Part shown: piece by piece, positions 102-58,926 of the stretch
Numbering within the stretch: the first letter of the stretch is position 1
How the letters are laid out: every line of letters starts with the position of its first letter
Virus record (IMG/VR): IMGVR_UViG_3300020454_000016
Coordinates: 1-59,495 of that record
Source of the DNA: a virus
Lineage: Duplodnaviria; Caudoviricetes
DNA length: 59,495 nt
Reading direction: 5' to 3' (one strand)
Made by a program: the position numbers and the translations under genes
Notes under the pieces: model-generated
What the model saw: only the letters and a program-made list of their open reading frames with translations
Databases searched by the model: none
Told to the model about the DNA's origin: nothing

Positions 102-125
102 CAAGTTTGCCACGTGGCAATGTTG
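102..125 (+). repeat. 24-bp quasi-palindrome copy 1 (CAAGTTTGCCACGTGGCAATGTTG)
   Basis: Exact sequence read; 14-bp perfect palindromic core at 107-120. Confidence 0.97.
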
Positions 126-156
126 GGTTAACTGTGTAAAAAACTAATTATTCTTT

Positions 157-185
157 AATATAGCATAGCCACACATTGATGTCAA
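157..185 (-). promoter_or_regulatory. sigma70-type promoter TTGACA-N17-TATATT
   Basis: Perfect -35, 17-bp spacer, TG-extended -10 on the minus strand. Confidence 0.8.
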
Positions 186-278
186 ACCGATTTGCTTAAA
201 TAACCACACTAAGTTGAAATGCCCCCACCCCCACCCCAAAACCTATCATCACTATTTTTGAGTGAGAAAAGTTGGCAT

Positions 279-312
279 AAAAAAAAAAGGCTACTGAAAT
301 TAATCAATAGCC
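279..312 (-). terminator. Intrinsic terminator after ORF 340-573
   Basis: GGCUAUUGA-UUAAUU-UCAGUAGCC followed by U10. Confidence 0.85.
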
Positions 313-339
313 AATTTAATTTTAAATTTATTTTTGTGG

Positions 340-573
340 TTAGATTTTTTCTAACATAGTCTCAATTATTTGTAATTTATTTGTGTAGTTATCCAATTGC
401 TTTTTATTGTAAATCATAGGTAAATTATTTTCATCTAGAATTTCATTTCTGAAATACTGACACTCTTGAATAACACTATCAATTGAAGCTTGCAAGTGTC
501 TCACTTTTTTTTCACTAGCCATTAATTTTTCAATTAAATTTGCTTCTACTATTTTATAATTTTTATCTAACAT
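340..573 (-). CDS. Hypothetical protein (77 aa, coiled-coil-like)
   Basis: ORF with GAGAG upstream and a terminator downstream; no recognisable motif. Confidence 0.6.
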   Translation of the reverse strand: MLDKNYKIVEANLIEKLMASEKKVRHLQASIDSVIQECQYFRNEILDENNLPMIYNKKQLDNYTNKLQIIETMLEKI

Positions 574-596
574 TTTTTAAACTCTCAATTTAAATT

Positions 597-635
597 AAAT
601 AAAATGTGGCAATGCTAACATTTCAACATTGCCAC
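597..635 (-). terminator. Terminator-like hairpin after ORF 650-1591, overlapping repeat copy 2
   Basis: GUGGCAAUGUUGA-AAUG-UUAGCAUUGCCAC (13 bp, two G-U pairs) followed by AUUUUAUUU. Confidence 0.65.
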
Positions 636-647
636 GTGGCAAACTTG
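624..647 (-). repeat. 24-bp quasi-palindrome copy 2
   Basis: CAACATTGCCACGTGGCAAACTTG, the exact reverse complement of copy 1. Confidence 0.97.
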
Positions 648-649
648 GA

Positions 650-1591
650 TTACTTTTTATTTTCAAAAGTGAAAGCCATATTCATAAGTAAGGCGTGAAC
701 GTCTACTTTTGAAGCTTCAGCCTTTTCACATACATGAGTAATTGCAGTATATATAGCATCTGTTACTGAGCAATTAGTGGCTTTTTTGGTATTTGCTAAG
801 AATACATCAAGTTGATTTTTAAATTGCTCGTCAACTTTTGTTTCATCTAACTTTTCAATTTTTGGTGTATTAGATTTTGAATTACCACCAACAGAAGCTT
901 TTGATGTTCTCGCTGATACATCATTAGTTTTCTTGTCTGTTGTAAGATTCAATTTTTTTGAAACACTACAATATGAAACATATTTATTAGTATTCTTATT
1001 GTAAAATGATCCTACAATATCACTTGTGTCTGTCTTTTCAATACCATTAAAAATTGTATCTGCACCAACAAATTTGTAATTACTATTTTTAATTACAGGA
1101 TCATTATTTATTTTTTCAGCATCAAATAAATTATTCCATATTAAAGCAACAACATGAAAAGAACGTGACCTTGTCATTGATGGTACTAGGTCATAAGCTT
1201 CTTGACCAACTAACTGAATCAAAGCTTCTTTCATTAATTCTGGCTTCATTTCTTTTGGCTTAGATTGTACATTATCAGAATTACATACAGTAATCTTTGA
1301 TCTAATTAAATGATAAGCGTGTGTAGACTGAGCATCAGCAAACTTACCTAAAGCAACTGAGCCATTATAAGCCCTATCAAAATTGTTTTTGCTATAACTA
1401 GCGTACATATTATTCAATATATTATCAGTCTCATTAGTTGAAAAGTATTGACCATCTTTATTGAAATAAGAAAAACATGTCTCTTTTATTGTTGCTGTCA
1501 AGTTAGATACTTTAACATTCTTTGCAACAGTTTTAGTAGAAGCTTTTTTATTAGTTGTTTTTTTAACTGTGTTTGTCATTTTTATTCTCAC
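650..1591 (-). CDS. Hypothetical early protein with Lys/Thr-rich N-terminus (likely start ATG 1579)
   Basis: 313-codon ORF in very AT-rich DNA; no family recognised. Confidence 0.8.
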   Translation of the reverse strand: MRIKMTNTVKKTTNKKASTKTVAKNVKVSNLTATIKETCFSYFNKDGQYFSTNETDNILNNMYASYSKNNFDRAYNGSVALGKFADAQSTHAYHLIRSKITVCNSDNVQSKPKEMKPELMKEALIQLVGQEAYDLVPSMTRSRSFHVVALIWNNLFDAEKINNDPVIKNSNYKFVGADTIFNGIEKTDTSDIVGSFYNKNTNKYVSYCSVSKKLNLTTDKKTNDVSARTSKASVGGNSKSNTPKIEKLDETKVDEQFKNQLDVFLANTKKATNCSVTDAIYTAITHVCEKAEASKVDVHALLMNMAFTFENKK

Positions 1592-1638
1592 TTTTTTGGC
1601 TCATTTTGTCAGAGGTATGTGCCTTAGACCTTAATATT

Positions 1639-1666
1639 AATATAAGTGTTTATTTAAATAATTCAA
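1639..1666 (-). promoter_or_regulatory. Possible sigma70 promoter TTGAAT-N16-TATATT
   Basis: Upstream of ORF 650-1591; AT-rich context lowers specificity. Confidence 0.4.
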
Positions 1667-1719
1667 GTGTTTCAAGTAAAATAATTTAAATAAAATGAAA
1701 TTAATTTATTGTATCATTT

Positions 1720-1743
1720 CAAGTTTGCCACGTGGCAATGTTG
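1720..1743 (+). repeat. 24-bp quasi-palindrome copy 3
   Basis: Identical to copy 1, with shared flanks ATTT...G. Confidence 0.97.
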
Positions 1744-2118
1744 GATAATGTTGTACACATTTTCAAGGGGTGTCCTTTTGTTTTCGTGGGGGTGTACTTT
1801 TTTGGTGGTGGTTTTTGGTGTAACAGATATAAAATCAGTTTATCAAAATATTTAAATGATTCATTTAATTGAATTTTCATTTTATATTCTCATTTAAAAA
1901 ATATGTTTTACTGCAAGCTTAAAATTGTTGCACCAAAAATGACCTCCTGCAATTTCGGGTTTTGGGGTAGGGCAGGCGACACACCCGGTTGGTACGTATG
2001 TGTTCACAGAACCCTACACAGATCAGGAAAAAGGGGTGTTAACCACTTATGTTGCACAAATACCACATTGTACTAGGGTCACAATATAAAAATAATGGTG
2101 TTTTCTTCATTTTAGGGG

Positions 2119-2148
2119 TTGACAACTTGAATTTAATGTGTAAAACTA
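2119..2148 (+). promoter_or_regulatory. Putative rightward promoter TTGACA-N10-AATGTGTAAAACTA (copy A)
   Basis: Perfect -35; the same downstream 14-mer recurs at identical spacing at 2252-2281. Confidence 0.55.
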
Positions 2149-2251
2149 CCCATTAAGGGTGTTACAATTAAAGATGATTTAAAAAAACTTTATTAATACA
2201 CCTATATGTACACTTAAATGCAATAAATGTACAATATATTGAAAATAATGC

Positions 2252-2281
2252 TTGACAATGAAAAAGAAATGTGTAAAACTA
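2252..2281 (+). promoter_or_regulatory. Putative rightward promoter (copy B)
   Basis: TTGACA-N10-AATGTGTAAAACTA, duplicate architecture of 2119-2148. Confidence 0.5.
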
Positions 2282-2533
2282 TATAACTATACCTCTGTAT
2301 TAGACAGATATTATAATGCCCTTATATCTAAAGGAAGCATTAGCAACATCAAAAACATGCATATACCTGTATCTGATGTATTCTATGTGCAAAAAGCAAT
2401 AGAAATGAACACAGGTGTTAAATATAGCCTAGATCATGTAGAAAGAGCTATGTATTTAGAGGGTCATCTGAGTGCATCAGATGTATTAGACCCTAGTGTA
2501 CCACGAGGATACTGTAGTTATGATAACACCTGA
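2258..2533 (+). CDS. Hypothetical phage protein
   Basis: First ORF of the + strand arm; start uncertain (TTG 2252 or ATG 2258). Confidence 0.7.
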   Translation: MKKKCVKLYNYTSVLDRYYNALISKGSISNIKNMHIPVSDVFYVQKAIEMNTGVKYSLDHVERAMYLEGHLSASDVLDPSVPRGYCSYDNT

Positions 2534-2762
2534 AAAGTTAGACTCATGGAGAATCGTGCCTAGAGCATTAATCCTGTCGTACATGGTCGTATTTTATCAA
2601 ACATGCAGTTGGTTTATGAATCTCGCAGAGCCAAACAATGCTCAAGCAGGTTTTGTATCTGTTGTAGTAGGAGCAGGTGCCGCTTGGTTTGGTTTATACG
2701 TAAATGGTGGAAAATCACGAGTTGAGGTTTCATCTAAAGTTGAGCAAAGGGAGAATATATAA
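2520..2762 (+). CDS. Small two-TM membrane protein (possible holin)
   Basis: Two hydrophobic segments (RALILSYMVVFY; AGFVSVVVGAGAAWFGLYV); ATG 2520 overlaps the previous gene end. Confidence 0.7.
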   Translation: MITPEKLDSWRIVPRALILSYMVVFYQTCSWFMNLAEPNNAQAGFVSVVVGAGAAWFGLYVNGGKSRVEVSSKVEQRENI

Positions 2763-2902
2763 TGTGGGGAAGAGTATTAGATTTTTTTAGTTCACGGGGT
2801 GAAGGTACTGCGTGGGATTTAGATTATGGTAAATTAATTATCATAGGTCTATGTATATATATTGCAATCGCTGTAAGTGGTTGTCATTCAATTGGAGGTT
2901 AG
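2762..2902 (+). CDS. 46-aa membrane peptide (not in ORF track)
   Basis: TAATG coupling, GGAG SD, hydrophobic C-terminal half ending in IAVSGCHSIGG. Confidence 0.65.
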   Translation: MWGRVLDFFSSRGEGTAWDLDYGKLIIIGLCIYIAIAVSGCHSIGG

Positions 2903-2934
2903 TGGCTACTTTTCGGTGTGCGAGTAGCCATTTT
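2902..2934 (+). terminator. Hairpin, possible intrinsic terminator
   Basis: GTGGCTACT...AGTAGCCAT followed by TTT. Confidence 0.45.
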
Positions 2935-2951
2935 AATTATAGGAGATACTA

Positions 2952-3035: not shown

Positions 3036-3038
3036 TTG

Positions 3039-3206: not shown

Positions 3207-3218
3207 AGGAGATACAGT

Positions 3219-48066: not shown

Positions 48067-50109
48067 CTAAATTTCTTTCGTGTCAAGCCAATTCTTTCCT
48101 ATTTTTGATTCTAATAATAATGGTACATTAAAATCAATATTATAGTATTGGTGGATGATGTCGTGCAGATTTTGATTTAGGTGTGCTACTGCCGCTATCA
48201 CTTCATCCACCTCGTTAGGATGTACATCAACAACGATTGAATCGTGTACTGTGTTTACTAAACAACTCTGTAGATTTCCTAACAATTTCTCAAATTCCAA
48301 TAAGACTATCGGAACAATACAACCTGTTGCAAAACCTTGAACAGGATAATTCTTAATCATAGTAAAAAAACTTACGCTACCATTTCTTCTCCTTTCAACT
48401 AATGGAAACTCATATTGTCTACCTGATGGTATTGTAACTCGCTTTGTTGCAACTACTTCATCAGCTAACTTTTTATGCCATTGAGCAATTCCTTTATACT
48501 TTTCATTAAAGTGCGTATAGTACTCTGCTTCTGCTTTCGTTCTGCCATACCCACTTGCCCCGTAAAGCGGAGCAAACGTATGCATCTTAGCTACTTGACG
48601 ACTCGTAGGTTGTCCCGCATCAGATATAATCTTAGCAGTATAACTATGCACATCGAAACCTGTTCTAACCTCTTCCATAGCCACCTTGTCCTGTGACAAA
48701 TATGCCGCCACTCTAAACTCCAATTGAGCAAAATCAGCTTCTAGTATCTGTCCATTTTCAAAACGTGACACAAATACTTTCTTAACAGGAAATGTACCAC
48801 CTCGCGGCATGTTTTGCATGTTAGGACTTCTACCACTAAATCTTCCTGTAGATGTAATGTGTTGCGTTAATCCCACATGTAAGAAACCATCTTCTTTTGT
48901 AAATGTCTTGATGCCTTGCACAAAAGACGACAAGTACGAATCTAGAGCAGACAGACGTTTTACATTAGCTATGAACTTAGCTTGTGGAATTAAGTTATTC
49001 GCTGTTGCTTGATTCTGTAGTATATCAAGATCACCTTTTGCAGTAGAGAAACCATTAGCACTTATCCATGATTTACTTGTAGGTTTGAATCGTAAGCCTG
49101 CGATAGATTGAGATGGTATCAATAGAAAGCCTTCACCTAGACACTTCTTACATATATTTGGTTTTTTGAATAATGTACCATCTTTTTTAATCTTATGTAT
49201 CTTCTTATTACCATTGCATTCATCACATTTAATCGCTTTAGTTTTGTACATAGGCACAGTATTCTGTTCGACACACCGATTAAAATCTCTTTTATCCCTA
49301 ACTTGTTGAAACAATTCTTCGCCCCATATCTTTTTATCAATAACTTTTCGACTGTATATTACTTGCGATAATTGTTCTGGACTATTAAGATTAATCGGTG
49401 TATCTCCCATTAATATGTTCATTTGATCTGATAATTCAAGTACTATGTCTGTTTTTTCTTGTTCAAACTCATTTCGTACCTTTTCTAATTCCATCTCATC
49501 AACCTTCATGCCTTTCATGTACATGCGAGTTAACGTCTTACACACCTTGTTTTTTATGTCCAACACTTTGTGCAAAGATTGATTTTCTTGATCTTGATAT
49601 CTTTTAAACAATGCCCAATAAAGACAGCGAGTAACTCTTATATCATCTTTCAAATAGCTACTTAATTCAGCATGGGGTATATCTCTAGTCGTGAAACCTT
49701 TCTTGAAATACTCTTTTAATATATCTGACTTAGTATGTGGCAATTCATATCGTTCTGCACATTTCTCAAGCGACAAGCCTTTCTTAACTCCTCTACATAA
49801 GACATACTCAGCTAACATTGTATCATAAATGTCGCAATCAAATTTAAACCCACATCCCCACAACCATTGCAAATCATGTTGGGCATTGTGCATAATCAAT
49901 AATGACGCATCCTCAAGTAAACGCTGTAATTTGTCAGCACTATCTGGTTGTATCTCAGCATGATCAAAAGTAAATACAGTTGGTTCACCACTACCATTTG
50001 CATCACCAATACCCACCATTGTTAAAGTATTTGTTGGCTCGTATGGATCAAGGTGTAGCTTGCCATCTCTTGTGATTACTGTGTTTTCTACATCAACTAC
50101 TAATTTCAT
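48067..50109 (-). CDS. polA: Family A DNA polymerase with DnaJ-like zinc-finger insertion
   Basis: Exo DVE and HNAQHD; TGRFS, DFAQLE, AKMHTFAPLYG, NYPVQG, VHDS; insert CDECNG...CKKCLGEG. Confidence 0.95.
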   Translation of the reverse strand: MKLVVDVENTVITRDGKLHLDPYEPTNTLTMVGIGDANGSGEPTVFTFDHAEIQPDSADKLQRLLEDASLLIMHNAQHDLQWLWGCGFKFDCDIYDTMLAEYVLCRGVKKGLSLEKCAERYELPHTKSDILKEYFKKGFTTRDIPHAELSSYLKDDIRVTRCLYWALFKRYQDQENQSLHKVLDIKNKVCKTLTRMYMKGMKVDEMELEKVRNEFEQEKTDIVLELSDQMNILMGDTPINLNSPEQLSQVIYSRKVIDKKIWGEELFQQVRDKRDFNRCVEQNTVPMYKTKAIKCDECNGNKKIHKIKKDGTLFKKPNICKKCLGEGFLLIPSQSIAGLRFKPTSKSWISANGFSTAKGDLDILQNQATANNLIPQAKFIANVKRLSALDSYLSSFVQGIKTFTKEDGFLHVGLTQHITSTGRFSGRSPNMQNMPRGGTFPVKKVFVSRFENGQILEADFAQLEFRVAAYLSQDKVAMEEVRTGFDVHSYTAKIISDAGQPTSRQVAKMHTFAPLYGASGYGRTKAEAEYYTHFNEKYKGIAQWHKKLADEVVATKRVTIPSGRQYEFPLVERRRNGSVSFFTMIKNYPVQGFATGCIVPIVLLEFEKLLGNLQSCLVNTVHDSIVVDVHPNEVDEVIAAVAHLNQNLHDIIHQYYNIDFNVPLLLESKIGKNWLDTKEI

Positions 50110-50116: not shown

Positions 50117-51337
50117 TCAAGGTATATAAAATGATTTCTCTTTATCTAAACGACAAGTAACTGTACCATGCCATCCATTCAACTTATTCTTAGACACAAC
50201 AATATGTCTTATATCTGTTTCTTCCTCGCCTTCAAGCATGGGGTCTTTAGATAAGAGCAACATCAAATCTGTTTCTGCCGCCTTTCCTGTCTTAGACCCT
50301 TCAAGCATAGATTGATTAGGTGTGACTCTGCCCTCTGCTTCAGCAGACAATTGACTCATCCATATAATTGCACAACCATGCAACTTAGCTATGTTCCTAG
50401 CATGAATTGCCGCATCTTTCAAGTACACATCAGACTTATCACTTGTACGCATAGCAAACTTGTCACCCATATCTAACACAACAATGTCAGGCTTAGTTGC
50501 TTTGATTGTCAACTCAACGTAGTCCATGTACAAACCTGTACAATCTTTGATGGTCAGCCTATCTGTTACTTTCTTATATAACATCCCTGCTTTAGCCGGA
50601 TTGTTCTTGATTGCTTTCATGTCCATTCCTGTTGTTGCAGTTAAGTATCGTGAACCGACACGATGATATGCTTCTTCATTAGTTAATATAATGCATCTTG
50701 CTCCTTGTTCAACAAAGCCACCAGGACCTGCTATTATTGATGCCTGAAACGATGTTTTACCTGTGTTAGGTCTTGCACCAATCATAACCAAATGCCCATC
50801 GCTGATGCCCTCTATTCTTTGTTTGAGAGTAGGTAGATTGAACTTCCACTTAGCTTCAAGATCATTAAGACGCAAAAGTGTTTCAATGCTTATGTCTTCC
50901 CAATCAATTTCAATATTAGGTAAAAAGTCATCATTGTGTTTATGTATTATCTTACGTAAAGGTTCTAACGAATTGGTCTTACCATTAACATAATCAAATC
51001 CTATGTTTGCAATCTCCTCGCCTAACATCTGCCTAAATAAACTAGATAGCACATCACTAGCTATTTCTTTGTCCATAGCTTTCTGCTTACTTAACTTAAA
51101 AAACAGATTAGTATACACTTCTCTGTTGGCAGTTGTCATTGTTGGATTGTTAGCCATAAATAAAGCTTGTAACTCATCTACAGTTAAATCCTTTTCGTAC
51201 TTCTTCATTGAATAGTCCAAGACTTGTTTAATCTTGACTACATCTTTAGAAAATATTTTATCAGGTGACTTAGCACCTTTGTGTTCATCATAGAACTTTT
51301 TATCCATGAGTGATCTTATTAAAGCCAACTCTGTCAT
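50117..51337 (-). CDS. Replicative helicase (DnaB/SF4)
   Basis: GARPNTGKT, VVLD, SQL, KNK..G. Confidence 0.9.
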   Translation of the reverse strand: MTELALIRSLMDKKFYDEHKGAKSPDKIFSKDVVKIKQVLDYSMKKYEKDLTVDELQALFMANNPTMTTANREVYTNLFFKLSKQKAMDKEIASDVLSSLFRQMLGEEIANIGFDYVNGKTNSLEPLRKIIHKHNDDFLPNIEIDWEDISIETLLRLNDLEAKWKFNLPTLKQRIEGISDGHLVMIGARPNTGKTSFQASIIAGPGGFVEQGARCIILTNEEAYHRVGSRYLTATTGMDMKAIKNNPAKAGMLYKKVTDRLTIKDCTGLYMDYVELTIKATKPDIVVLDMGDKFAMRTSDKSDVYLKDAAIHARNIAKLHGCAIIWMSQLSAEAEGRVTPNQSMLEGSKTGKAAETDLMLLLSKDPMLEGEEETDIRHIVVSKNKLNGWHGTVTCRLDKEKSFYIP

Positions 51338-52131
51338 GCTAACACCTCTTTCAATCCTTCTATGTCCTCTACTCTCTTATATTTTATGTCATCTGTCAAG
51401 GGGTAGGCAGTTACTTCAGAAACATAATTCTTTAATTCCTTTGTGTAAGCAACTGTCTTACTCCTTGCGTCAGGGTCTAGGGCAACTACACAATGCTCAT
51501 ACTTAGATAGGAAATCAATGTGTCGATGATTGAGATTAGTACCCAATATGGCAACACCATCAACATCAGGAAAACAATCATAGACTACTAGAGATGACAC
51601 AACGTCCTCAACTATGATTGCTTTCTTTCTTCCTTTCCACGTATGTTGCACATAGTAGTCTGCCCTACCACTATAACGTAGCCATTTCGGATGCCCCCCA
51701 ACCAAGCTACGTCCTATAGCATCTATTAATGTACCATTCTCATTTCTAAGAGGAAAAACAAGACGATCATCTTTTACATCGTACATAATATATGATGCTG
51801 ATAAGTTTTTATGCAACCCCCACCTAGACATGAAAGCCTTGATGATAGGTTTGCTTATGTCATGTGTTACGTGTGGTGGCATTTGAAACTCCTCAACATT
51901 GCCACGTGGCAAACTTGGACTTTTATTCATAAGATTGTATATGTCTTCACGATTTAATCCCACAGAAACTTTTCCTTTTGACCCACACGATACTCTATAG
52001 CAGTTGAATACAATAATGCCATCCACCTTAGATGCAGTAAATGTATTCTTGCCTTTACACAAAGGGCAATCTCCTCTGTAGCTATCGCCCTCACTAATAT
52101 GTAAATCATTTATATATGTATTTATAAACAT
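51334..52131 (-). CDS. DNA primase (zinc finger plus TOPRIM)
   Basis: CPLC...CYRVSC; IVED; ALDPDA. Confidence 0.88.
   Translation of the reverse strand: MFINTYINDLHISEGDSYRGDCPLCKGKNTFTASKVDGIIVFNCYRVSCGSKGKVSVGLNREDIYNLMNKSPSLPRGNVEEFQMPPHVTHDISKPIIKAFMSRWGLHKNLSASYIMYDVKDDRLVFPLRNENGTLIDAIGRSLVGGHPKWLRYSGRADYYVQHTWKGRKKAIIVEDVVSSLVVYDCFPDVDGVAILGTNLNHRHIDFLSKYEHCVVALDPDARSKTVAYTKELKNYVSEVTAYPLTDDIKYKRVEDIEGLKEVLA
51894..51917 (-). repeat. 24-bp quasi-palindrome copy 4, inside the primase gene
   Basis: Exact match; encodes PSLPRGNV in the linker region. Confidence 0.97.
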
Positions 52132-52177: not shown

Positions 52178-53305
52178 TCAAGACCCACCACTAAAAATAT
52201 TTAAAGATTGTGTCTTTGATAACGCACTTTTTGCTGATTTTAGTGTGTGTTTTACGTAAGGTGTCACCGATTGTATATTTTGATGCCCACTTACTGCCAT
52301 GATCTGTGTTATATCTACACCATTCTCCACCATCTCTGTGATTTTAGTTCTTCTCATGTCCATGATTTTTAAATCAGGAGATAGACCACACTTTTCTTTA
52401 ATCTCATTTGCTTTTGTGGAGATTTGTGTCTTGTCATATGGTCTGTATTTAGTTTTGTATGGCGATACATTAGGTGCAACATACTCTTGCCACCCCCAAT
52501 TCTCATGTTGTTTCTTTAACATACGCACCAAATCATCAGAAATAGGTAGAAACACCTCTGATCTACGTTTAGATTGTTCAAGTGTTAGAACTTGGTCATC
52601 AAAATTTATACATGACCACTTCAACTCACGCATATCACCCACTCGTTGCCCCCACTCGTAAGCCATGTGTGTAATCAAACCAATATTTGACCAATTCCAC
52701 TTGCTATAAGCAGTTTCTAGGAACAATCTTACTTCTTTTTGTGTCCAAACAACCTTCCTAGCCAACTCTTTTTGTTTTTCTATGCCTAAACTAGGATTAG
52801 CCACGATGATATCGTACTCAAGTGCGACATTTAGTACCTTACGCAATACAGAATGCGTGATGTTAGCAGTTCTTGACCCTCTCTCTAGCCACTTCTCGTA
52901 TGCTGACTTGATATCTGACCGACATAGCTTGCCCAACTTAATATTTTGTAGTGTTCTACCCCCTTTTATCTTAGTCATCAAGCCTTTGTGCATAAGATTG
53001 CGATAATCTCTCTTAGTTTGCTCACGTAACTTGTTGAAACTGTGTGTAGTTTGGTAAAATCTAAATAAAGCATAAAGTGTGCTTTTGTCAGTTGGTATTT
53101 TCTGTGCAATAACAAACTTTTGCCACTCATTTAGCTTTTTATTCTGTTCTTCTATCTTATTATACGATGCATAGCGATTTGCTTCGCATCTCATAGGATG
53201 TACGATGCCCACCACTACTGCCCTCATAGGTGGATTGTACTCCCACCACGTAGTTCCATCAGAATCACGAACTACTCGTACATGTTTTGGTATTTTTTTA
53301 TTCAT
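52178..53305 (-). CDS. int: Tyrosine recombinase/integrase
   Basis: GQRVGD (R), QSK (K), DMRRT (R), SGH (H), TPY (Y). Confidence 0.9.
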   Translation of the reverse strand: MNKKIPKHVRVVRDSDGTTWWEYNPPMRAVVVGIVHPMRCEANRYASYNKIEEQNKKLNEWQKFVIAQKIPTDKSTLYALFRFYQTTHSFNKLREQTKRDYRNLMHKGLMTKIKGGRTLQNIKLGKLCRSDIKSAYEKWLERGSRTANITHSVLRKVLNVALEYDIIVANPSLGIEKQKELARKVVWTQKEVRLFLETAYSKWNWSNIGLITHMAYEWGQRVGDMRELKWSCINFDDQVLTLEQSKRRSEVFLPISDDLVRMLKKQHENWGWQEYVAPNVSPYKTKYRPYDKTQISTKANEIKEKCGLSPDLKIMDMRRTKITEMVENGVDITQIMAVSGHQNIQSVTPYVKHTLKSAKSALSKTQSLNIFSGGS

Positions 53306-53321: not shown

Positions 53322-53345
53322 CAACATTGCCACGTGGCAAACTTG
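53322..53345 (-). repeat. 24-bp quasi-palindrome copy 5, upstream of the integrase SD
   Basis: Exact match, 4 nt before AGGAG. Confidence 0.97.
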
Positions 53346-53349
53346 GTAT

Positions 53350-53553
53350 TTAAAATGGTGGCTCTTCACCCCTGTGGGATGGTAGCCAAACGTCATATTC
53401 AATGCGTGGTGTTTCTTCTCTAGTAAGAATAATTGTTTCACGCACACCAATCTCATCTAAGAATGACTTTATATTGTATGGTAAATCATCATTGCCATCT
53501 TTCACAAGTAACGACATCTCTATCTCCCCATTTATCATACATATTTCTAACAT
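53350..53553 (-). CDS. Small hypothetical protein ending in GEEPPF
   Basis: ORF in the coupled early cluster; start uncertain. Confidence 0.6.
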   Translation of the reverse strand: MLEICMINGEIEMSLLVKDGNDDLPYNIKSFLDEIGVRETIILTREETPRIEYDVWLPSHRGEEPPF

Positions 53554-53743: not shown

Positions 53744-53879
53744 AACTCCTCACATTAATGTTTACACGTTTGTGTGGTTTCTTCTTCCCTTTTTTAGGTG
53801 GCACAATTTGTGGTGGCTTACGATCAGTTAACATAGCCTTTGCGATAGGATTGACACGCACTATTTTTAATTTTTTCAT
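53721..53879 (-). CDS. Small basic protein (NPIAKA motif)
   Basis: GGAG SD before ATG 53879. Confidence 0.65.
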   Translation of the reverse strand: MKKLKIVRVNPIAKAMLTDRKPPQIVPPKKGKKKPHKRVNINVRSYDYDTEI

Positions 53880-54519: not shown

Positions 54520-54707
54520 TCGTACATTCTCCCATATTTATATGCCATTTGATTTCTATTCTTCATTAAAACATCTGTGACAAAGTTCGCCACCTTCTCG
54601 ACCTCATTCAAAGTCAGACCTTGTAGTGTAACTTTGAATGCATCTTCATTAGGTGTATTCCTCTGTCGCATCAACTCACTACTGCACTTTATCTTTTCTA
54701 CTTTCAT
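54516..54707 (-). CDS. Hypothetical protein
   Basis: GAGG SD, coupled ORF. Confidence 0.6.
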   Translation of the reverse strand: MKVEKIKCSSELMRQRNTPNEDAFKVTLQGLTLNEVEKVANFVTDVLMKNRNQMAYKYGRMYE

Positions 54708-55878
54708 TATATACCTCTAACCATTTAGGATCATAAGACTTCTTGTTCTCGCCTATGTACTCATGTGAATAACATATGCGTTTCTTTTCTAGTGGAAAGT
54801 GATGCCAACTCTTACTGTTGCCACTCTTTGATCTGTCCACCAAGTTTGTAGCAGTTGGTCGCCATAATGGTGACTTCTGCCTATACTCGCCCATGCGTAT
54901 GTGACTAGTCTTAGAGAAATATCGTAAGCCTTGTTCAATATGCATGTCAGCAATCGTATCAGATAATCGTGTACCTAAACCAATACCTTGAAAGTCAGGT
55001 AGACATACTGTCCTACACTCTCGCCACTTCAAACGAATGTCGCCCTCATATAAACCGGGGGTACGACCGGGTAGACAGATAGATGATGCGAATGCTACAA
55101 GTTCATCTCCCCACTTAGCTATCCATGAACGAGTAGCATGTGGTAGCTTGTGATTTAGATAGTGATGGTTCTTAAACATTTCCCATTTGTCTCGCTGACA
55201 TCTGTAAATACTAAGTTCAATTGTGGGTCTGATCCATCGCCTTTGTGACCCCCTCGACACAAGCTGTTTTGTGTCTGTGTTATATACCCAATCTGGCTCA
55301 AGCCATTCAATAATGTCATCATGGCACGATGCAAATACGATGTGCGATAGTCCTTGCTTACGTATGTACTTAGCCACACTAGAACTGCATGACTTAGCCA
55401 CATTACGATTGACTACGGATGTGAACTCATCAATTACTGAACCATAAGCTAGTTTACGAGCCAAATCTGCCCTGAACCCCTCACCATTTGATACGACATG
55501 TCTAGGTTTAGCCCATGTAGGCACACTATTCAAGCCAACTGCACTCAATCTCTCAATGGCATCATCTACACTACCGAAATGACTAGCAATTGATTTATCA
55601 TCTATCCACATAGGTTTGTACTCTTCACCAAACTGTTTCAAGATTGATGACTTACCTGACCCACTTGATCCTACGATCAAACCTATGTTGAACTCTAATG
55701 GATTGCCATTATCATAGGTCATTATCTGATCATGTAAGTTAGGCACTTCAAATGAAGTTGTATAAGTATCTCCCTCGTGATCATGGAATAGATCAAAGAG
55801 TTTGTATATCTTTTTGTCTACATCTGTAGCTTGTATGCTACTCGTTAGTATCTCACTCATAGTCTTTCTCCTGTGCAT
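54679..55878 (-). CDS. ABC-type ATPase fused to a GNAT (Mom-like) domain
   Basis: GSSGSGKS, VSNGE signature, IDEFTS, SCH; then HHYL and RTVCLPDFQGIGLG acetyl-CoA loop. Confidence 0.8.
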   Translation of the reverse strand: MHRRKTMSEILTSSIQATDVDKKIYKLFDLFHDHEGDTYTTSFEVPNLHDQIMTYDNGNPLEFNIGLIVGSSGSGKSSILKQFGEEYKPMWIDDKSIASHFGSVDDAIERLSAVGLNSVPTWAKPRHVVSNGEGFRADLARKLAYGSVIDEFTSVVNRNVAKSCSSSVAKYIRKQGLSHIVFASCHDDIIEWLEPDWVYNTDTKQLVSRGSQRRWIRPTIELSIYRCQRDKWEMFKNHHYLNHKLPHATRSWIAKWGDELVAFASSICLPGRTPGLYEGDIRLKWRECRTVCLPDFQGIGLGTRLSDTIADMHIEQGLRYFSKTSHIRMGEYRQKSPLWRPTATNLVDRSKSGNSKSWHHFPLEKKRICYSHEYIGENKKSYDPKWLEVYNESRKDKVQ

Positions 55879-56265: not shown

Positions 56266-56444
56266 AGTGATTGCTCCTCAAGTTTATGTTCCAACAACTT
56301 ATCTATAACATTATCTAGCTGATTAATCAATAGGTTATTACCCATACTAGCTACTTGTTCAATAAGATTTTCTGTGGTTGTCGCCATAATTTCATCTAGT
56401 ATTTGCTCCTTTAGAGCATCATTGTGTACATTACTCATTGTCAA
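56262..56444 (-). CDS. Hypothetical protein
   Basis: AAGGAG SD, coupled ORF. Confidence 0.6.
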   Translation of the reverse strand: MTMSNVHNDALKEQILDEIMATTTENLIEQVASMGNNLLINQLDNVIDKLLEHKLEEQSL

Positions 56445-56715
56445 TCTCCTTCGCTAACCAACCACCTAAACGTCTGTGTAATTTACCATTAATTATCATT
56501 TCTTGAAACCATCTTATATCTTTTTTGATCTCTGTCGCAGTTCTATTCAAGATTACATCATTCGCATACTCTTCACCCATGTATTCATTTAATCCTCTTT
56601 TACCTAAAGGATGAGTCATACAAATATCATTAGCTAATTTATCTTGCTCAATGCTATTCATGTTTGCGAATGTTTTTTCTTCTCCACCAACTGTAAATTT
56701 TCTTTCTTTATTCAT
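56431..56715 (-). CDS. Hypothetical protein
   Basis: GGAGG SD, coupled ORF. Confidence 0.65.
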   Translation of the reverse strand: MNKERKFTVGGEEKTFANMNSIEQDKLANDICMTHPLGKRGLNEYMGEEYANDVILNRTATEIKKDIRWFQEMIINGKLHRRLGGWLAKEIDNE

Positions 56716-56867
56716 TAATCATCCTCCAAATAAATCATAATTTTTGCTACTCTTGTAATCAAAGCTTTCCTACAATCCACCAACTCCTCATCATTTAGTT
56801 CTCTAAGAGAACAATGTAACTCTTCAGCTTCATCCCATGCATCTTGTATGTCCTCTCTATCAATCAT
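56715..56867 (-). CDS. 50-aa acidic protein (not in ORF track)
   Basis: MIDREDIQDAWDEAEE...; GAGG SD; TAATG coupling. Confidence 0.6.
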   Translation of the reverse strand: MIDREDIQDAWDEAEELHCSLRELNDEELVDCRKALITRVAKIMIYLEDD

Positions 56868-57009
56868 CTCTGTCCTCTCTCATATCTAAATATAAAATTC
56901 TACTTGTTTGCTTGTAGTAACCATGCTCTGCACAATAAGGCATCTTGTCCATGATTACTACTGCGTTAGTTGAAGTGCAACCCTTATGATTGCACTCAAC
57001 ATGTGTCAT
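56860..57009 (-). CDS. 49-aa putative zinc-finger peptide (not in ORF track)
   Basis: CNHKGC...YCAEH pattern; fills the gap after DUF932. Confidence 0.55.
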   Translation of the reverse strand: MTHVECNHKGCTSTNAVVIMDKMPYCAEHGYYKQTSRILYLDMREDRDD

Positions 57010-57028
57010 CTTCTGATTCAAGTACTCA

Positions 57029-57874
57029 CTATACATTAGTCAGAGCCTTGAACTGTGATGAAGATACCCACTTAGACACTTCTTCCTCTCGTTTCCACAT
57101 GGTCACAGCCTTTGTGTCCTTGCCTGTGTTTCTCTCTTTGAAACCATTACGTTCATCTGCGTATGTGCTGTAATTGGTGAACGCACTATACAGAGAATAA
57201 AGGTTACGCCCTCTCTTTTGCACCTCTGCATTGTATAGATTGTACATTCTATCTGCCTTGCGTTCAGACTTAATCAAGCTTTCAATTAAAGGTTTAGTAT
57301 CGTGTGGCAATGATGTGTTCGCCCAATCTTGTAACTTCGTAGTGTGTCGCTTGAAATCAAAATCCATGTTCTCAATGTCACGTAAGAAATCATGCATACG
57401 AAAGCCACTTGTGTTCTTCTTACGCACCTTGTCATGTTCACCCGTAATCTGCCCATTCGTACAGAAACTATCTATTGCACCAAAATAAACTTGATTGGAA
57501 CACAAACCATCCACACCATGCAAAGCAACAACACGTAAACTTACATCTTGTGCCATCTTATCTGTCGTGATGGTAGTCTTAGTCGTAGGAAAGGCAAGGT
57601 CTAGCATCATAAATGCATTGTTCCTAGCAGTTGATATCTTCATATCCATATTTTTAACATCATCATCTGACAACTTGTCAAACAATGGTTGAGCAAAACT
57701 GTTAGTGAACTCTTGATGTGACCCACAATTAAAGTTGCTACCCACAATGCCTAGCACCTCATCTGTCACACTATTAACTGCATACTTTTTGTCATGCATA
57801 CGTGACGTTTCATAGTGTGTATTAAACTGTAAATAGTCAGGTAAATCAATAATATTTGTAAAATCTAAAGCCAT
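57029..57874 (-). CDS. DUF932-family protein
   Basis: VLGIVG...SHQE, HGVDG, FCTNG motifs. Confidence 0.75.
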   Translation of the reverse strand: MALDFTNIIDLPDYLQFNTHYETSRMHDKKYAVNSVTDEVLGIVGSNFNCGSHQEFTNSFAQPLFDKLSDDDVKNMDMKISTARNNAFMMLDLAFPTTKTTITTDKMAQDVSLRVVALHGVDGLCSNQVYFGAIDSFCTNGQITGEHDKVRKKNTSGFRMHDFLRDIENMDFDFKRHTTKLQDWANTSLPHDTKPLIESLIKSERKADRMYNLYNAEVQKRGRNLYSLYSAFTNYSTYADERNGFKERNTGKDTKAVTMWKREEEVSKWVSSSQFKALTNV

Positions 57875-57912
57875 AATTCTATCTCCTCTTTATGACGTTG
57901 CTCATGTAACTA

Positions 57913-57941
57913 GTTATATCAAAATTACTCGTAGTTGTCAA
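57913..57941 (-). promoter_or_regulatory. sigma70-type promoter TTGACA-N17-TATAAC
   Basis: Consensus spacing, TG extension, upstream of DUF932. Confidence 0.75.
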
Positions 57942-58446
57942 CACCGATCTCCTTTCTTGGAATGTACTGACAGTTATAGTTAAGCCAAATGTGTGCTTCC
58001 TCTATCTTATCAAAAATAGGTGGCAAGTACCATGTTGCCCCATCCCAATTGATACGAGCCAAACTCCACGATGGTTTATACTTTTTAACTTGCTCCATTT
58101 TAAGACTAGACATAGACCACTCCATTGATGTGTAGCCAATCATCTTACAATAGATATGCATCTGTGCAGTATTAACTAAATCATCAATCATTTTGTCATT
58201 GATGTACGGATACTTTTCTACATCAAACAGATAGTCCATTGCATACAGTAGATTTTGTTTTGCATCTTGAATATCCCAAGATGTAGCATATCGCATTTCA
58301 TCTACTAACTTGTGACCTAATGGCTGACGATTGATTTTGTGATCGACACGTTGCAAGACCATGAAGACATCTACCTTATTGTTCTTGCGTTGATGTGCGA
58401 GGGTAGACTTCACACACCTATGAATGCGTTCTAAATGAGTAGTCAT
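57925..58446 (-). CDS. Hypothetical early protein
   Basis: 173-codon coupled ORF. Confidence 0.75.
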   Translation of the reverse strand: MTTHLERIHRCVKSTLAHQRKNNKVDVFMVLQRVDHKINRQPLGHKLVDEMRYATSWDIQDAKQNLLYAMDYLFDVEKYPYINDKMIDDLVNTAQMHIYCKMIGYTSMEWSMSSLKMEQVKKYKPSWSLARINWDGATWYLPPIFDKIEEAHIWLNYNCQYIPRKEIGVDNYE

Positions 58447-58886
58447 TATGCTACCTTCCTTTTCTTGCCTTCTTTAATTAAGGTTTGTTGCTCCAACTCT
58501 TTCATAGCAGTTGCTAACTTTCTGAAATTATGAGAGGTGAAATTTTCTGGCTCTTTATTCAAGAACTTCCACCTAGAGATTGCTCGCATCTTTTCTACAC
58601 AAGTTCTACGTGCTTGCTCCTTCTTTGATAGAGTAGGATGAGCTTGATTTGCAATCAACAGATCAATGATATAGTCAACTTGCCAATATCTTTTCTGCAA
58701 CTTTTTAGCAATCTCCTTTTTGTTCAAGCCTTCCTTGAGAAGAAGAGATATTTTGTGCATTGATATTGAGTAATCCTCTTCCCCCGCTTTTCTCTTACGT
58801 GTCCAATCATACGCACCCGTATCTCTGATCTTTTTAGTTACTGCAATTTCATCTTCAGTTAGTATATTTTTAATTGTGAATGGCAT
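58446..58886 (-). CDS. Helix-turn-helix DNA-binding protein (putative regulator)
   Basis: LLKEGLNKKEIAKKLQKRYWQVDYII HTH pattern; AAGGAGG SD. Confidence 0.65.
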   Translation of the reverse strand: MPFTIKNILTEDEIAVTKKIRDTGAYDWTRKRKAGEEDYSISMHKISLLLKEGLNKKEIAKKLQKRYWQVDYIIDLLIANQAHPTLSKKEQARRTCVEKMRAISRWKFLNKEPENFTSHNFRKLATAMKELEQQTLIKEGKKRKVA

Positions 58887-58902
58887 GATGCCCTCCTTAT
58901 TT

Positions 58903-58926
58903 TAAGTTTGCCACGTGGCAATGTTG
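58903..58926 (+). repeat. 24-bp quasi-palindrome copy 6 (23/24 match)
   Basis: TAAGTTTGCCACGTGGCAATGTTG between the promoter and SD of the HTH gene. Confidence 0.97.

What the first reader, a model, noticed from the sequence alone, without database searches (positions are those of the whole stretch)
102..58926. Six-copy 24-bp quasi-palindrome network confined to the early/integrase region
Seen: CAAGT-TTGCCACGTGGCAA-TGTTG occurs at 102-125(+), 624-647(-), 1720-1743(+), 51894-51917(-), 53322-53345(-) and 58903-58926(+, one mismatch). I saw none in the 50 kb between 1.8 and 51.8 kb, so on a circular map all copies fall within about 9-10 kb. Every copy keeps the same asymmetry (one AAGT arm, one AACA arm) and never becomes a perfect palindrome. 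Four copies sit 0-5 nt upstream of an SD: the gene at 84, the HTH gene, the integrase and an internal primase ATG. Two lie between a sigma70 promoter and the gene. Known: operators normally drift between copies, and a CACGTG-centred palindrome clustered in one region and tolerated inside a CDS recalls ParB parS sites (TGTTTCACGTGAAACA), although the arms differ. Inference: a dedicated phage control system, either a lysis/lysogeny operator set, a centromere-like or looping array, or an RNA processing hairpin.
Basis: partly seen in the sequence, partly recalled or inferred. Interest (0 to 1): 0.9.

Follow-up and report, generated by a model that had tools for sequence, protein, structure and literature searches.

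The report
Early-arm palindromic operator-like site network
A marine HMO-2011-type phage carries six near-identical copies of a 24-base near-palindrome in its early gene arm, most likely the binding sites of a still unidentified phage regulator, and relatives including phage HMO-2011 itself carry their own versions of such sites.

Summary
Six copies (5 exact, 1 with one change) of CAAGTTTGCCACGTGGCAATGTTG lie at the stated coordinates, with 0 expected by chance and none elsewhere in the record.

The window is a near-complete HMO-2011-type podophage. All copies lie in the first ~9.4 kb of the minus-strand early/replication arm.

Relatives add the main evidence:
- Same-motif relatives keep both arms unchanged while flanks fall to 71-85% identity. 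Only the central CpG changes.
- One relative has the primase copy flipped, two have the control-region copy duplicated 43 nt apart, and one has an extra in-frame copy in another gene.
- A sister lineage (G001) carries ATGTCAYRTGACAT at the same kinds of places.
- HMO-2011 has five exact copies of AGTCCG-ACAG-CGGACT confined to its early arm.

Orientation independence, dyad symmetry, a weak RNA hairpin and compensatory arm changes favour a double-stranded DNA site set, an operator/roadblock network, over an RNA element or parS.

The binder is not identified. The adjacent 146-aa protein has an HTH-like fold, but its putative recognition helix does not co-vary with the motif.

Verdict: a new variant of a known kind, of moderate interest.

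The parts
102..125 (.). Copy 1. It reads CAACATTGCC..AACTTG on the transcribed (minus) strand. It lies between a sigma70-like promoter and the SD of the GP88-family gene that starts at 84.
   Evidence: The homologous copy is present in L121 and L147.
157..185 (-). Sigma70-like promoter TTGACA-17-TATATT with extended -10 TG. By inference copy 1 lies at about +25 to +48.
   Evidence: 11 of 12 consensus positions. The transcription start is not mapped.
289..312 (-). Intrinsic-terminator-like hairpin with a T10 run, after the 77-aa gene (340-573).
624..647 (.). Copy 2. It starts 2 nt after the stop of the 313-aa gene and reads CAAGTTTGCC..TGTTG on the transcribed strand.
   Evidence: It is conserved 24 of 24 in L169.
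606..635 (-). Terminator-like 13-pair hairpin plus U-rich tail. It is built from the right half of copy 2 and an extra half-site (CATTGCCAC), and it excludes the motif hairpin.
   Evidence: -25.4 kcal/mol, z -4.3, 0 of 200 shuffles fold as well.
1720..1743 (.). Copy 3, in the divergent region between the early (minus) and structural (plus) arms, 129 nt upstream of the 313-aa gene start. It is single here and duplicated 43 nt apart in L149 and L169.
51894..51917 (.). Copy 4, in frame inside the primase ORF (read as S-L-P-R-G-N-V) and directly followed by GAGGAG-N6-ATG. It is flipped in relative L105.
53322..53345 (.). Copy 5, in the 44-nt spacer between the 67-aa gene (stop at 53350) and the integrase start (53305), 4 nt before the SD. 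The 29 nt that carry it are absent in L011 and L014.
58903..58926 (.). Copy 6 (first base T), between a sigma70-like promoter and the SD of the 146-aa gene.
58962..58990 (-). Sigma70-like promoter TTTACT-17-TATATT with TG. By inference copy 6 lies at about +29 to +52.
   Evidence: 9 of 12 consensus positions.
58446..58886 (-). 146-aa protein with an HTH-like three-helix core. It is a candidate binder and is unproven.
   Evidence: residues 38-78, block pLDDT 77-88. Z 5.0-6.2 to HTH DNA-binding domains; 0.86 to an HTH_23 cluster. HTH_7 at E 0.035, below cut-off. Against.
650..1591 (-). 313-aa first gene of the early arm, bracketed by copies 3 and 2. Its function is unknown. It diverges strongly in the lineage with the other palindrome.
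   Evidence: no family; 33-35% identity to G001 and 76-93% in same-motif relatives; model unusable, pLDDT 43.
52178..53305 (-). Tyrosine integrase, directly downstream of copy 5.
   Evidence: PF00589, E 7.7e-24. PHROG 1.
51334..52131 (-). DNA primase, which holds copy 4.
   Evidence: PHROG 47, E 6e-26.
57297..57320 (-). Degenerate relative of the motif (only TTGCCAC is kept) in the DUF932-like gene. L147 has a full in-frame copy at this place and L014 a decayed one.
   Evidence: The coordinates are approximate.

Best explanation
The 24-mer is a double-stranded DNA recognition site for a sequence-specific protein. That protein is probably phage-encoded and binds with two-fold symmetry to the core TTGCCA-YR-TGGCAA plus 5 further bases on each side. 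Together the six sites form an operator/roadblock network over the early arm.

Where the sites lie:
- the divergent control region (copy 3; tandem 42-43 bp apart in relatives);
- about +25 to +50 downstream of two early sigma70-type promoters (copies 1 and 6);
- two gene junctions (copies 2 and 5, the latter just before the integrase);
- the primase ORF (copy 4).

When the sites are occupied, host RNA polymerase is held at or shortly after the early promoters and blocked again further down. This silences the early, integrase and replication genes. The purpose is either maintenance of lysogeny and immunity (the phage has an integrase) or shut-off of early genes during lytic growth.

What is shown: the sites, their non-random placement, selection on both arms, a free centre, orientation independence, gain, loss, flip and duplication of sites, and equivalent lineage-specific palindromes in relatives including HMO-2011.

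What is inferred: that a protein binds, that binding represses, and which protein it is. The HTH-like 146-aa product downstream of copy 6 is the leading but weak candidate.
For: (1) Non-random sites. Six copies against 0 expected, none in the 40-kb structural arm.

(2) Selection on the arms. In 14 homologous-site comparisons with relatives, the 24-mer shows 13 differences in 336 positions. Nine are transitions at the central CpG and four come from inversion of one copy. There is no point change in either arm. The +/-100-nt flanks show 242 differences in 2685 positions. At site 3 (L169, L149), sites 4 and 5 (L105) and site 6 (L147), flank identity is 71-84%.

(3) Either orientation is used.
- On the one transcribed strand three copies read CAACA... 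and three read CAAGT....
- L105 has the primase copy inverted, with the protein changed accordingly.
- HMO-2011 has 4 copies reading ACAG and 1 reading CTGT.

(4) Compensatory change of both arms between lineages. The window has TGCCA/TGGCA and G001 has TGTCA/TGACA, at the same kinds of places: before the integrase SD, after the early promoter of the 146-aa gene homologue, after the first early gene, and as a tandem pair in the divergent region. G001 has five copies with a 2-nt centre and one with a 3-nt centre. In L012 the pattern gave 3 matches against 0.01 expected.

(5) Tandem copies lie 43 nt apart (L149, L169) and 42 nt apart (G001), about four helical turns. This is typical of cooperative operator pairs.

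(6) HMO-2011 has five exact AGTCCG-N4-CGGACT within about 3.3 kb of its early arm. The reversed-pattern control gave 0. Two copies follow a repeated promoter-like box and precede an SD.

(7) The RNA hairpin alone is weak: 5 bp plus a 4-nt loop, with fold z-scores of +0.05 to -1.5 for the six stretches other than copy 2. At copy 2 a competing terminator hairpin wins.

(8) An HTH-like protein is encoded directly downstream of copy 6.
Against: No binder is shown.
- No early ORF matches a DNA-binding family. Forty window ORFs were scanned, with relaxed re-scans. HTH_3 and HTH_23 are absent from six frames.
- The putative recognition helix of the 146-aa protein differs between the window and L147, which share the motif, as much as between the window and G001, which do not.

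Sites at +25 to +50 and just before SDs also fit a 5'-UTR RNA element.

In L013 and L014 a related 23-mer has a G-T position that would still pair in sense RNA but breaks the DNA dyad.

A plain symmetric dimer does not explain the strictly conserved asymmetric positions (GT on one arm, TG on the other).

The three promoter-side copies share one orientation and the three others the opposite one. By my arithmetic this has a chance of about 1 in 32. It hints at a polarity that the simple model ignores.

Promoter calls are consensus matches at background frequency.

A comparable network was not detected in HTVC033P (whole genome). It was also not detected in six integrase-bearing IMG/VR relatives (pol +/-10 kb only), nor in the first 11 kb of CRP-2 and the first 6.5 kb of CRP-3.
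Confidence: 0.5

Rival explanations
1. RNA element. The motif acts in the early transcripts as a small hairpin just 5' of the ribosome-binding site. It would be a translational operator for a phage RNA-binding protein, a processing or stabilising hairpin, or a nut-like antitermination signal after early promoters.
For: Four copies end 0-4 nt before an SD.

Copies 1 and 6 lie in inferred 5' UTRs.

Four of the five HMO-2011 copies are followed by an SD-like sequence and an ATG.

Copy 2 overlaps an alternative terminator hairpin, which could form an attenuator-like switch.

Arm changes between lineages keep base pairing.

The L013/L014 variant TTGCCATATGGTAA keeps a G-U pair on the sense strand.
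Against: Both orientations occur on the same transcribed strand. They give different internal loops (G-G/U-U against C-C/A-A) and, in HMO-2011, different loops (ACAG against CUGU).

The primase copy is flipped in L105.

The hairpin is weak, with z about -1, and does not form at copies 2 and 4 in the minimum-energy folds.

In G001 the copy after the promoter of the 146-aa gene homologue lies about 35 nt from the SD rather than next to it.

No Rfam family matches.

The stem is far shorter than an RNase III substrate (established knowledge, not tested here).
Confidence: 0.17
2. Selfish or recombinational repeat. The 24-mer is a small palindromic element that spreads by copy-paste or gene conversion, or a 'linker' that promotes module exchange. 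It would have no regulatory role of its own.
For: A presence/absence polymorphism of 29 nt at site 5 is bounded by AAT on both sides.

One copy is flipped, one is duplicated in tandem, and one is newly written into the DUF932-like gene of L147 as a patch seeded on TTGCCAC.

All copies are identical, including the non-palindromic positions.
Against: Arms are conserved 24 of 24 where flanks are 71-84% identical. That is selection, not recency.

The same kinds of positions are occupied by different palindromes in G001 and HMO-2011.

All copies are confined to the early arm.

No transposase-like family appeared in the 40 ORFs scanned. A Y1/RAYT profile was not searched specifically.

Identity breakpoints with L103 and L147 fall near 59003-59011, not at the motif.
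Confidence: 0.1
3. Centromere-like or DNA-organising sites. A ParB/KorB-type or other clamp-loading protein, from host or phage, loads at the copies to partition, condense or loop the phage DNA.
For: The palindrome is centred on CACGTG, as in parS (the consensus is recalled and comes from no call).

The copies are clustered, and one is tolerated inside a gene.

Weak structural rows for the 146-aa protein include KorB and Spo0J HTH domains, among many other HTH proteins.
Against: No ParB_N domain is found in six frames of the window.

The CACGTG centre is the variable part among relatives (CG, CA, TG, and TA in L014).

The arms differ from parS.

Close relatives, probably on similar hosts, use a different palindrome (G001). 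This argues against a host ParB.

An integrating phage needs no partition system (general knowledge).
Confidence: 0.06
4. Replication-related sites, such as origin iterons or loading sites for the primase-helicase, placed in the replication arm.
For: Copies lie in and next to the primase and integrase genes. G001 has one directly before the polymerase gene. A related 23-mer sits in both the pol and primase genes of L011 and L014.
Against: Most copies lie among early genes of unknown function far from the replication genes. They are spread over 9 kb rather than clustered. There is no AT-rich unwinding element next to them. Nothing links them to strand or fork direction.
Confidence: 0.04

Closest known systems
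Cluster A mycobacteriophage repressor with operator and 'stoperator' sites (L5 gp71, TipsytheTRex). Passages of PMC9283540 were read.
   Same: Both have many near-identical copies of one short site, at promoters and in short intergenic spaces, that stop host RNA polymerase at initiation and during elongation. Both are temperate phages without their own RNA polymerase. The HMO-2011-type early arm also holds L5-type genes (GP88 and gp82 families).
   Different: L5 sites are 13 bp, asymmetric, bound by a monomer, number more than 20 across the genome, and have an orientation tied to transcription. Here the site is a 24-bp near-palindrome in 6 copies, in both orientations, confined to the early arm. 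No repressor homologue was recognised.
Lambda/P22/434-type CI-Cro operators
   Same: Dyad-symmetric sites for a dimeric HTH protein. Tandem copies in a divergent control region in relatives. The centre tolerates change.
   Different: Classical operators overlap the -35/-10 of two promoters in one region and differ from each other. Here identical sites lie downstream of promoters, between genes and inside a gene over 9 kb. No HTH_3 protein was found.
phiC31 repressor and its conserved inverted repeats. Recalled from the literature; search retrieved no paper on it.
   Same: A 17-bp highly conserved inverted repeat present many times in the early region of a temperate phage.
   Different: The host group and the sequence are different. 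The comparison rests on recall only.
IncP plasmid KorB operators and ParB-parS (recalled)
   Same: An identical palindrome at promoter-proximal, distal and intragenic places. The CACGTG centre resembles parS.
   Different: No ParB_N domain. The centre is not conserved in relatives. There is no partition context.
T7 early RNase III sites and lambda nut boxB (RNA-level analogues, recalled)
   Same: Repeated structured elements between early genes or shortly after early promoters.
   Different: Those act in one orientation and, for RNase III, need long stems. Here both orientations occur and the stem is 5 bp plus 3 bp.

Membership tests
ParB-parS partition/condensation system | A ParB (ParB_N plus HTH) protein encoded with the sites | tested here: not met
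   PF02195 found nothing in six frames of the window at E <= 1. The control search matched 11 of 14 known genomes. A host ParB could not be tested because the host is unknown.
ParB-parS partition/condensation system | A 16-bp parS-type palindrome with conserved arms and CACGTG centre | tested here: not met
That centre varies (CG, CA, TG) among relatives while the different arms are fixed. The parS consensus itself is recalled.
Cluster A mycobacteriophage stoperator system | Sites in promoters and short intergenic spaces | tested here: met
   Five of six copies are non-coding. Two follow promoter-like sites and two sit in gene junctions.
Cluster A mycobacteriophage stoperator system | Asymmetric 13-bp site with orientation tied to the direction of transcription | tested here: not met
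   The site is a 24-bp near-palindrome. Copies split 3 and 3 in orientation on one transcribed strand, and one is flipped in L105. The feature is as described in PMC9283540.
Cluster A mycobacteriophage stoperator system | A two-domain (HTH plus stoperator domain) repressor homologue | tested here: inconclusive
   No family hit for any early ORF. No dedicated profile of that repressor was searched.
Lambda-type CI/Cro operator set | An HTH_3 (Xre/CI/Cro) protein | tested here: not met
   PF01381 found nothing in six frames.
Lambda-type CI/Cro operator set | Operators overlapping the promoter hexamers | tested here: not met
   Copies 1 and 6 start about 32-36 nt downstream of the -10 hexamers. 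Transcription starts are not mapped.
RNase III processing site (T7 type) | A long, roughly two-turn double-stranded RNA stem in a fixed orientation | tested here: not met
   The stem is 5 bp, then a 2x2 internal loop, then 3 bp. Both orientations are used.
Intrinsic terminator | A GC-rich hairpin followed by a U run | tested here: not met
   Only copy 2 takes part in such a structure, and through a different hairpin. The scan also listed the core at 53327-53340 on the + strand, which is antisense to the genes.
REP/MITE-like mobile palindromic repeat | A dedicated transposase (e.g. RAYT) and target-site duplications | tested here: inconclusive
   No transposase family appeared in the 40 ORFs scanned, but no specific profile was searched. 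The 29-nt indel at site 5 is flanked by AAT on both sides. That could be a duplication or microhomology.

The most novel reading that the evidence does not exclude
Part of the HMO-2011-type group, among the most abundant marine phage groups, shares an ancestral early-arm silencing network. Its palindromic sites are rewritten in concert when specificity changes (TGCCA to TGTCA to AGTCCG). The sites can be imposed in frame on replication-gene coding sequence, flipped and duplicated. Their strictly kept asymmetric positions imply a non-symmetric, previously undescribed binder, such as a two-headed monomer or a hetero-oligomer with no detectable family. The site variants would then define immunity groups among co-occurring ocean phages. 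The recurrent loss of the central CpG would reflect escape from a CACGTG-directed restriction or methylation system.
Probability: 0.25. Interest if true: 0.68.

Novelty: new variant of a known kind. Interest (0 to 1): 0.5.

Why it matters
[quoted passage not shown] In that paper the words promoter, palindrome and repressor do not occur. So there is no description there of how these phages control early genes or lysogeny.

A defined site set gives a concrete, testable handle on that control. It is present in the cultured type phage HMO-2011 as well as in uncultured relatives. It points to which DNA to use as bait, which promoters to test, and how to sort relatives into probable immunity groups.

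The site set also shows how regulatory sites turn over in a natural phage population: by gain, loss, inversion, duplication and in-frame writing into genes.

Tried and rejected
Exact search for the 23-mer in viral contigs found nothing, because the close relatives carry CA or TG at the centre. A degenerate pattern then found them.

A strand-specific G->A rule was suggested by L006/L086, where all three copies read CACATG on the sense strand. It was rejected after L147 and L105 showed both CA and TG on the sense strand.

Binder identification did not succeed.
- Pfam and PHROG scans of the early ORFs gave no DNA-binding family.
- The 146-aa family has only 4 homologues in the 5.8-billion set and 5 representatives in the 1.84-billion set. 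So co-variation could be judged on three sequences only.
- The search for related loci with its alignment returned 2 loci.
- Its profile matched nothing significant in PDB sequences. Foldseek against PDB gave no match at E <= 0.001.
- HMO-2011 gp02 and gp03 are not homologous to it.
- The homodimer job gave 'no answer' and is not used as evidence.
- The 313-aa protein had no PDB match, no informative Atlas neighbour and an unusable model, pLDDT 43.
- I suspected from its sequence that the 53-aa ORF 59005-59166 is ribbon-helix-helix-like. No tool supported this. L147, which has the same motif, has a different gene in that slot. I dropped the idea.

The link to lysogeny could not be established. 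HTVC033P, with no integrase annotated, has no comparable network. The crude k-mer/palindrome scan also found none in six integrase-bearing IMG/VR loci (pol +/-10 kb), in the first 11 kb of CRP-2 or in the first 6.5 kb of CRP-3.

RNA evidence is lacking. No RNA holder was listed for the stretch. Laying contigs of four runs gave no usable starts or ends. One contig joint, 53346->58898, has only 29 letters on one side and is taken as a repeat artefact.

No tRNA and no Rfam family were found in the window.

The TTGCCA core was examined as a -35 element. No consistent -10 follows it across copies, so this was rejected.

Literature. The HMO-2011-type paper was searched for six terms. Searches for 'HMO-2011' with 'palindrom' and with 'operator' returned 8 and 3 papers. 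None was relevant by title or abstract start, and they were not read.

Full report
**What is there.** The pattern CAAGTTTGCCACGTGGCAATGTTG occurs six times at up to 3 mismatches: five exact copies and one with its first base changed. None of 100 dinucleotide-preserving shuffles produced a match. The 14-bp perfect palindrome at its centre, searched with up to 2 mismatches, is found at the same six places and nowhere else in the 59,495 bases. Every copy has the same two non-palindromic dinucleotides: GT at positions 4-5 and TG at positions 20-21.

**Genome context.** The window is a whole IMG/VR virus record, rated 100% complete and 'linear'. Its DNA polymerase is 57.6% identical to that of Puniceispirillum phage HMO-2011 and 56-57% identical to those of several roseophages of that type.

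GC skew and ORF layout show two arms:
- a plus-strand structural arm, about 1.9-42.4 kb;
- a minus-strand early/replication arm, 42.6-59.5 kb continuing into 1-1.6 kb.

Relatives L121 and L147 carry about 565 nt between window positions 1 and 59495. So the record is broken inside a GP88-family gene and lacks about 0.56 kb. With the ends joined, all six copies fall in about 9.4 kb at the start of the early arm.

**Position of each copy**.
- Copy 3 (1720-1743) lies in the divergent region, 129 nt upstream of the first early gene, which encodes 313 aa with no family match.
- Copy 2 (624-647) starts 2 nt after that gene's stop.
- Copy 1 (102-125) lies between a strong sigma70-like promoter (TTGACA-17-TATATT, with TG) and the SD of the GP88-family gene.
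- Copy 6 (58903-58926) is placed in the same way, after TTTACT-17-TATATT and before the 146-aa gene.
- Copy 5 (53322-53345) fills the short spacer before the integrase SD.
- Copy 4 (51894-51917) is in frame inside the primase ORF.

The promoter calls are consensus matches only. The scans found no more such sites than shuffles give.

On the transcribed strand, copies 1, 3 and 6 read CAACA..CTTG, and copies 2, 4 and 5 read CAAGT..GTTG.

**Relatives with the same motif.** Scans of IMG/VR and of metagenome contigs with a degenerate pattern, together with loci fetched through the polymerase, gave ten contigs that align to the window. They hold 19 copies.

I made 14 homologous-site comparisons.
- The 24-mer shows 13 differences in 336 positions. 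Nine are transitions at the central CpG (CG to CA or TG). Four are the asymmetric positions of the primase copy in L105, which is simply inverted.
- Not one point change falls in either arm.
- The +/-100-nt flanks show 242 differences in 2685 positions. Flank identity is only 71-84% at site 3 (L169, L149), sites 4 and 5 (L105) and site 6 (L147).

So all 22 arm positions, including the asymmetric ones, are under purifying selection and the centre is not.

The centre changes even in relatives whose flanks are 98-99.5% identical: 6 of 8 such comparisons, where L005 and L086 may be one population. At first all three copies of L086 seemed to carry the change on the same strand. L147 and L105 show both CA and TG on the sense strand, so there is no strand rule.

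**Site turnover.** The set of sites is dynamic.
- L149 and L169 have copy 3 duplicated head to tail 43 nt apart.
- L011 and L014 lack the 29 nt that carry copy 5, and the gap is bounded by AAT on both sides.
- L105 has copy 4 inverted, changing the primase peptide from SLPRGNV to TLPCGKL.
- L147 has an additional full copy inside the DUF932-like gene, read in the same frame (SLPRGNV). At that place L014 has a decayed copy and the window keeps only TTGCCAC.

In the primase, more distant relatives encode ELPQGKS or ELPYGKS, so the site was written onto a pre-existing similar sequence in a variable linker.

**Relatives with other palindromes.**
- G001 is a 44.4-kb record with a polymerase 91% identical to the window's. 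It has ATGTCAYRTGACAT five times and once with a 3-nt centre. In L012 the pattern gave 3 matches against 0.01 expected. Its copies lie directly before the integrase SD, directly before the polymerase SD, after a promoter-like site before the homologue of the 146-aa gene, after the homologue of the 313-aa gene, and as a tandem pair 42 nt apart in the divergent region. Relative to the window both arms have changed together (TGCCA/TGGCA to TGTCA/TGACA).
- Phage HMO-2011 has five exact copies of AGTCCG-ACAG-CGGACT at 53878, 54807, 60, 1261 and 1926 of its 55,282-bp circle. That is within about 3.3 kb at the start of its early arm. One further match with two mismatches lies elsewhere, and the reversed-pattern control gave none. 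Four copies read ACAG and one reads CTGT. Two follow a repeated promoter-like box, and four of the five are followed by an SD-like sequence and an ATG. Synteny supports equivalence: its gp01 is the GP88-family gene and is bracketed by copies as in the window.
- L064/L068 have ACATTAATGT three times within 150 bp.
- My crude scans found no comparable set in the complete HTVC033P genome. They also found none in six further integrase-bearing IMG/VR loci (only pol +/-10 kb available), nor in the first 11 kb of CRP-2 and the first 6.5 kb of CRP-3.

The feature is therefore recurrent in the group but not shown to be universal. A link to the integrase is not established.

**DNA or RNA.** Four points argue for double-stranded DNA as the functional form.
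- Both orientations are used on one transcribed strand, in the window and in HMO-2011, and one site flips between close relatives.
- Identical sequence rather than mere pairing is conserved.
- The RNA hairpin is small: 5 bp, a 4-nt loop and 3 outer pairs across a 2x2 mismatch. The stretches other than copy 2 have fold z-scores of +0.05 to -1.5.
- At copy 2 the minimum-energy fold is instead a 13-pair terminator-like hairpin, formed by the right half of the motif and an extra half-site (-25.4 kcal/mol, z -4.3). At copy 4 the motif hairpin is also not in the minimum-energy fold.

Three points favour RNA and cannot be dismissed.
- The copies lie close to SDs.
- Copies 1 and 6 lie in inferred 5' UTRs.
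- The L013/L014 variant has a G-T position that would still pair in the sense RNA.

The copy 2 arrangement could also work as an attenuator if something stabilised the motif hairpin.

**Who binds.** No early ORF matches a DNA-binding family. ParB_N, HTH_3 and HTH_23 profiles find nothing in six frames.

The 146-aa protein encoded just after copy 6 is the leading candidate.
- Its model has modest overall confidence (pLDDT 63.6) but a three-helix core at residues 38-78 with block pLDDT of 77-88.
- In the search that does not lean on Foldseek, this core aligns to HTH DNA-binding domains at Z 5.0-6.2: LsrR, SorC, DeoR with operator, Tn3 resolvase and KorB. Z below 8 is not decisive.
- Foldseek gave no significant match.
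- The Atlas gave a 0.86 neighbour of HTH_23 type.
- Pfam gave HTH_7 at E 0.035, below its cut-off.

The family is tiny, with 5 representatives in 1.84 billion proteins. In the three-way alignment the putative recognition helix differs between the window and L147, which share the motif, as much as between the window and G001, which do not. That gives no support for it as the specificity determinant.

The 313-aa protein is 76-93% identical in same-motif relatives and 33-35% identical in G001. That fits co-variation, but it equally fits a fast-evolving host-takeover gene, and its model is unusable. The homodimer job gave no verdict.

**Most likely mechanism.** I read the motif as a site for a two-fold symmetric, or nearly symmetric, DNA-binding complex. 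It would form an operator/roadblock set over the early arm. There is one site, or a cooperative pair, in the divergent control region. There are sites shortly downstream of two early promoters, and further blocks before the integrase and in the primase.

This resembles the operator-plus-stoperator logic of Cluster A mycobacteriophages, whose repressor halts initiation at promoters and elongation at many intergenic sites (passages of PMC9283540). It differs from that system in site symmetry, orientation rule and number of sites. It is not a member by any tested feature other than placement.

The unexplained parts are the strictly conserved asymmetric dinucleotides and the 3:3 orientation split that follows promoter proximity in the window lineage. 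Both suggest a binder that is not a simple symmetric dimer. I put this reading at about 0.5, the RNA element at about 0.17, a selfish or recombinational repeat at about 0.1, parS-like sites at about 0.06 and replication sites at about 0.04.

**The mutable centre.** CACGTG occurs six times in the window, all inside the motif, and nowhere else. Several other 6-bp palindromes are absent against 5-10 expected: AACGTT, ATCGAT, CCATGG and CCTAGG. This points to restriction avoidance. The repeated loss of the central CpG in very close relatives may therefore be escape from a CACGTG-specific restriction or methylation system, or deamination of a methylated cytosine, at a position the binder does not read. 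This is inference only.

**Novelty and verdict.** The HMO-2011-type comparative paper does not use the words promoter, palindrome or repressor. Two further searches gave nothing relevant by title. Supplements were not seen.

The phenomenon belongs to a known kind: phage operator networks with near-identical multi-copy sites. It has unusual features: a 24-bp fully constrained near-palindrome with fixed asymmetry, in-frame copies in replication genes, inversion and duplication of sites, and concerted change of both arms between sister lineages. The binder has no recognisable family.

I rate it a new variant of a known kind, of moderate interest. It is directly testable because the cultured type phage HMO-2011 has its own version.

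Noticed in passing
window 1-84 and 59430-59495: The record is broken inside a GP88-family (PF17338) gene. Relatives L121 and L147 have about 565 nt between window positions 1 and 59495. So the 'complete' linear record lacks about 0.56 kb. The gene that starts at 84 is about 238 aa in L147.
   Followed up: partly
whole window: CACGTG occurs only inside the six motif copies (6 of 6). AACGTT, ATCGAT, CCATGG and CCTAGG are absent against 5-10 expected. This looks like restriction-site avoidance. In relatives the central CpG of the motif turns into CA or TG far more often than the flanks change.
   Followed up: partly
L011 and L014 (also L013): the pol and primase genes. Window equivalents are near 49727-49749 and 51894-51917.: Within each of these genomes a 23-nt stretch is identical in the polymerase and primase coding sequences: GAGTTGCCACAGGGCAAGTCAGA in L011 and GAGTTGCCATATGGTAAGTCAGA in L014. 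It differs between the genomes, so the two copies evolve in concert. It encodes ELP[QY]GKS in both proteins. It could be a shared peptide motif, gene conversion, or these phages' own version of the site.
   Followed up: partly
window 51883-51893: Copy 4 is followed at once by GAGGAG-N6-ATG inside the primase ORF, after the zinc-finger part. This might give a shorter primase isoform, as in T7 gene 4A/4B (recalled). The ATG is CTG or TTG in L011, L013 and L014.
   Followed up: no
window 54679-55878 (-): A 399-aa protein with a P-loop and a GNAT acetyltransferase domain (PF00583, E 1.5e-4) is 91-96% identical in relatives whose neighbouring genes are far more diverged.
   Followed up: no
window 1744-2250: About 0.5 kb after copy 3 is G/T-rich and holds only one short ORF (57 aa). 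It has a small hairpin plus T run at 1764-1780 (+). The hairpin region is conserved in L149, L169 and G001. There is no Rfam or tRNA match.
   Followed up: no
HMO-2011 record NC_021864.1: 95-256, 1287-1448, 54845-55018: Small ORFs directly downstream of motif copies, each preceded by an SD-like sequence, are not in the record's annotation. One matches DUF7230 at E 3.8e-5, below its cut-off.
   Followed up: no
window 53346 / 58898: One DNA contig of run X17 joins these two places, next to copies 5 and 6, with only 29 letters on the shorter side. It is probably a repeat-induced artefact. A real 5.5-kb deletion variant is not excluded.
   Followed up: no
L147:1350-1601 and L012:1904-2185: The gene slot just upstream of the promoter of the 146-aa gene is variable. 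L147 and G001 share a conserved 83-93-aa gene (MRQ.K.RIHVNQH...). The window and L103 instead have a basic 53-aa ORF (59005-59166).
   Followed up: partly
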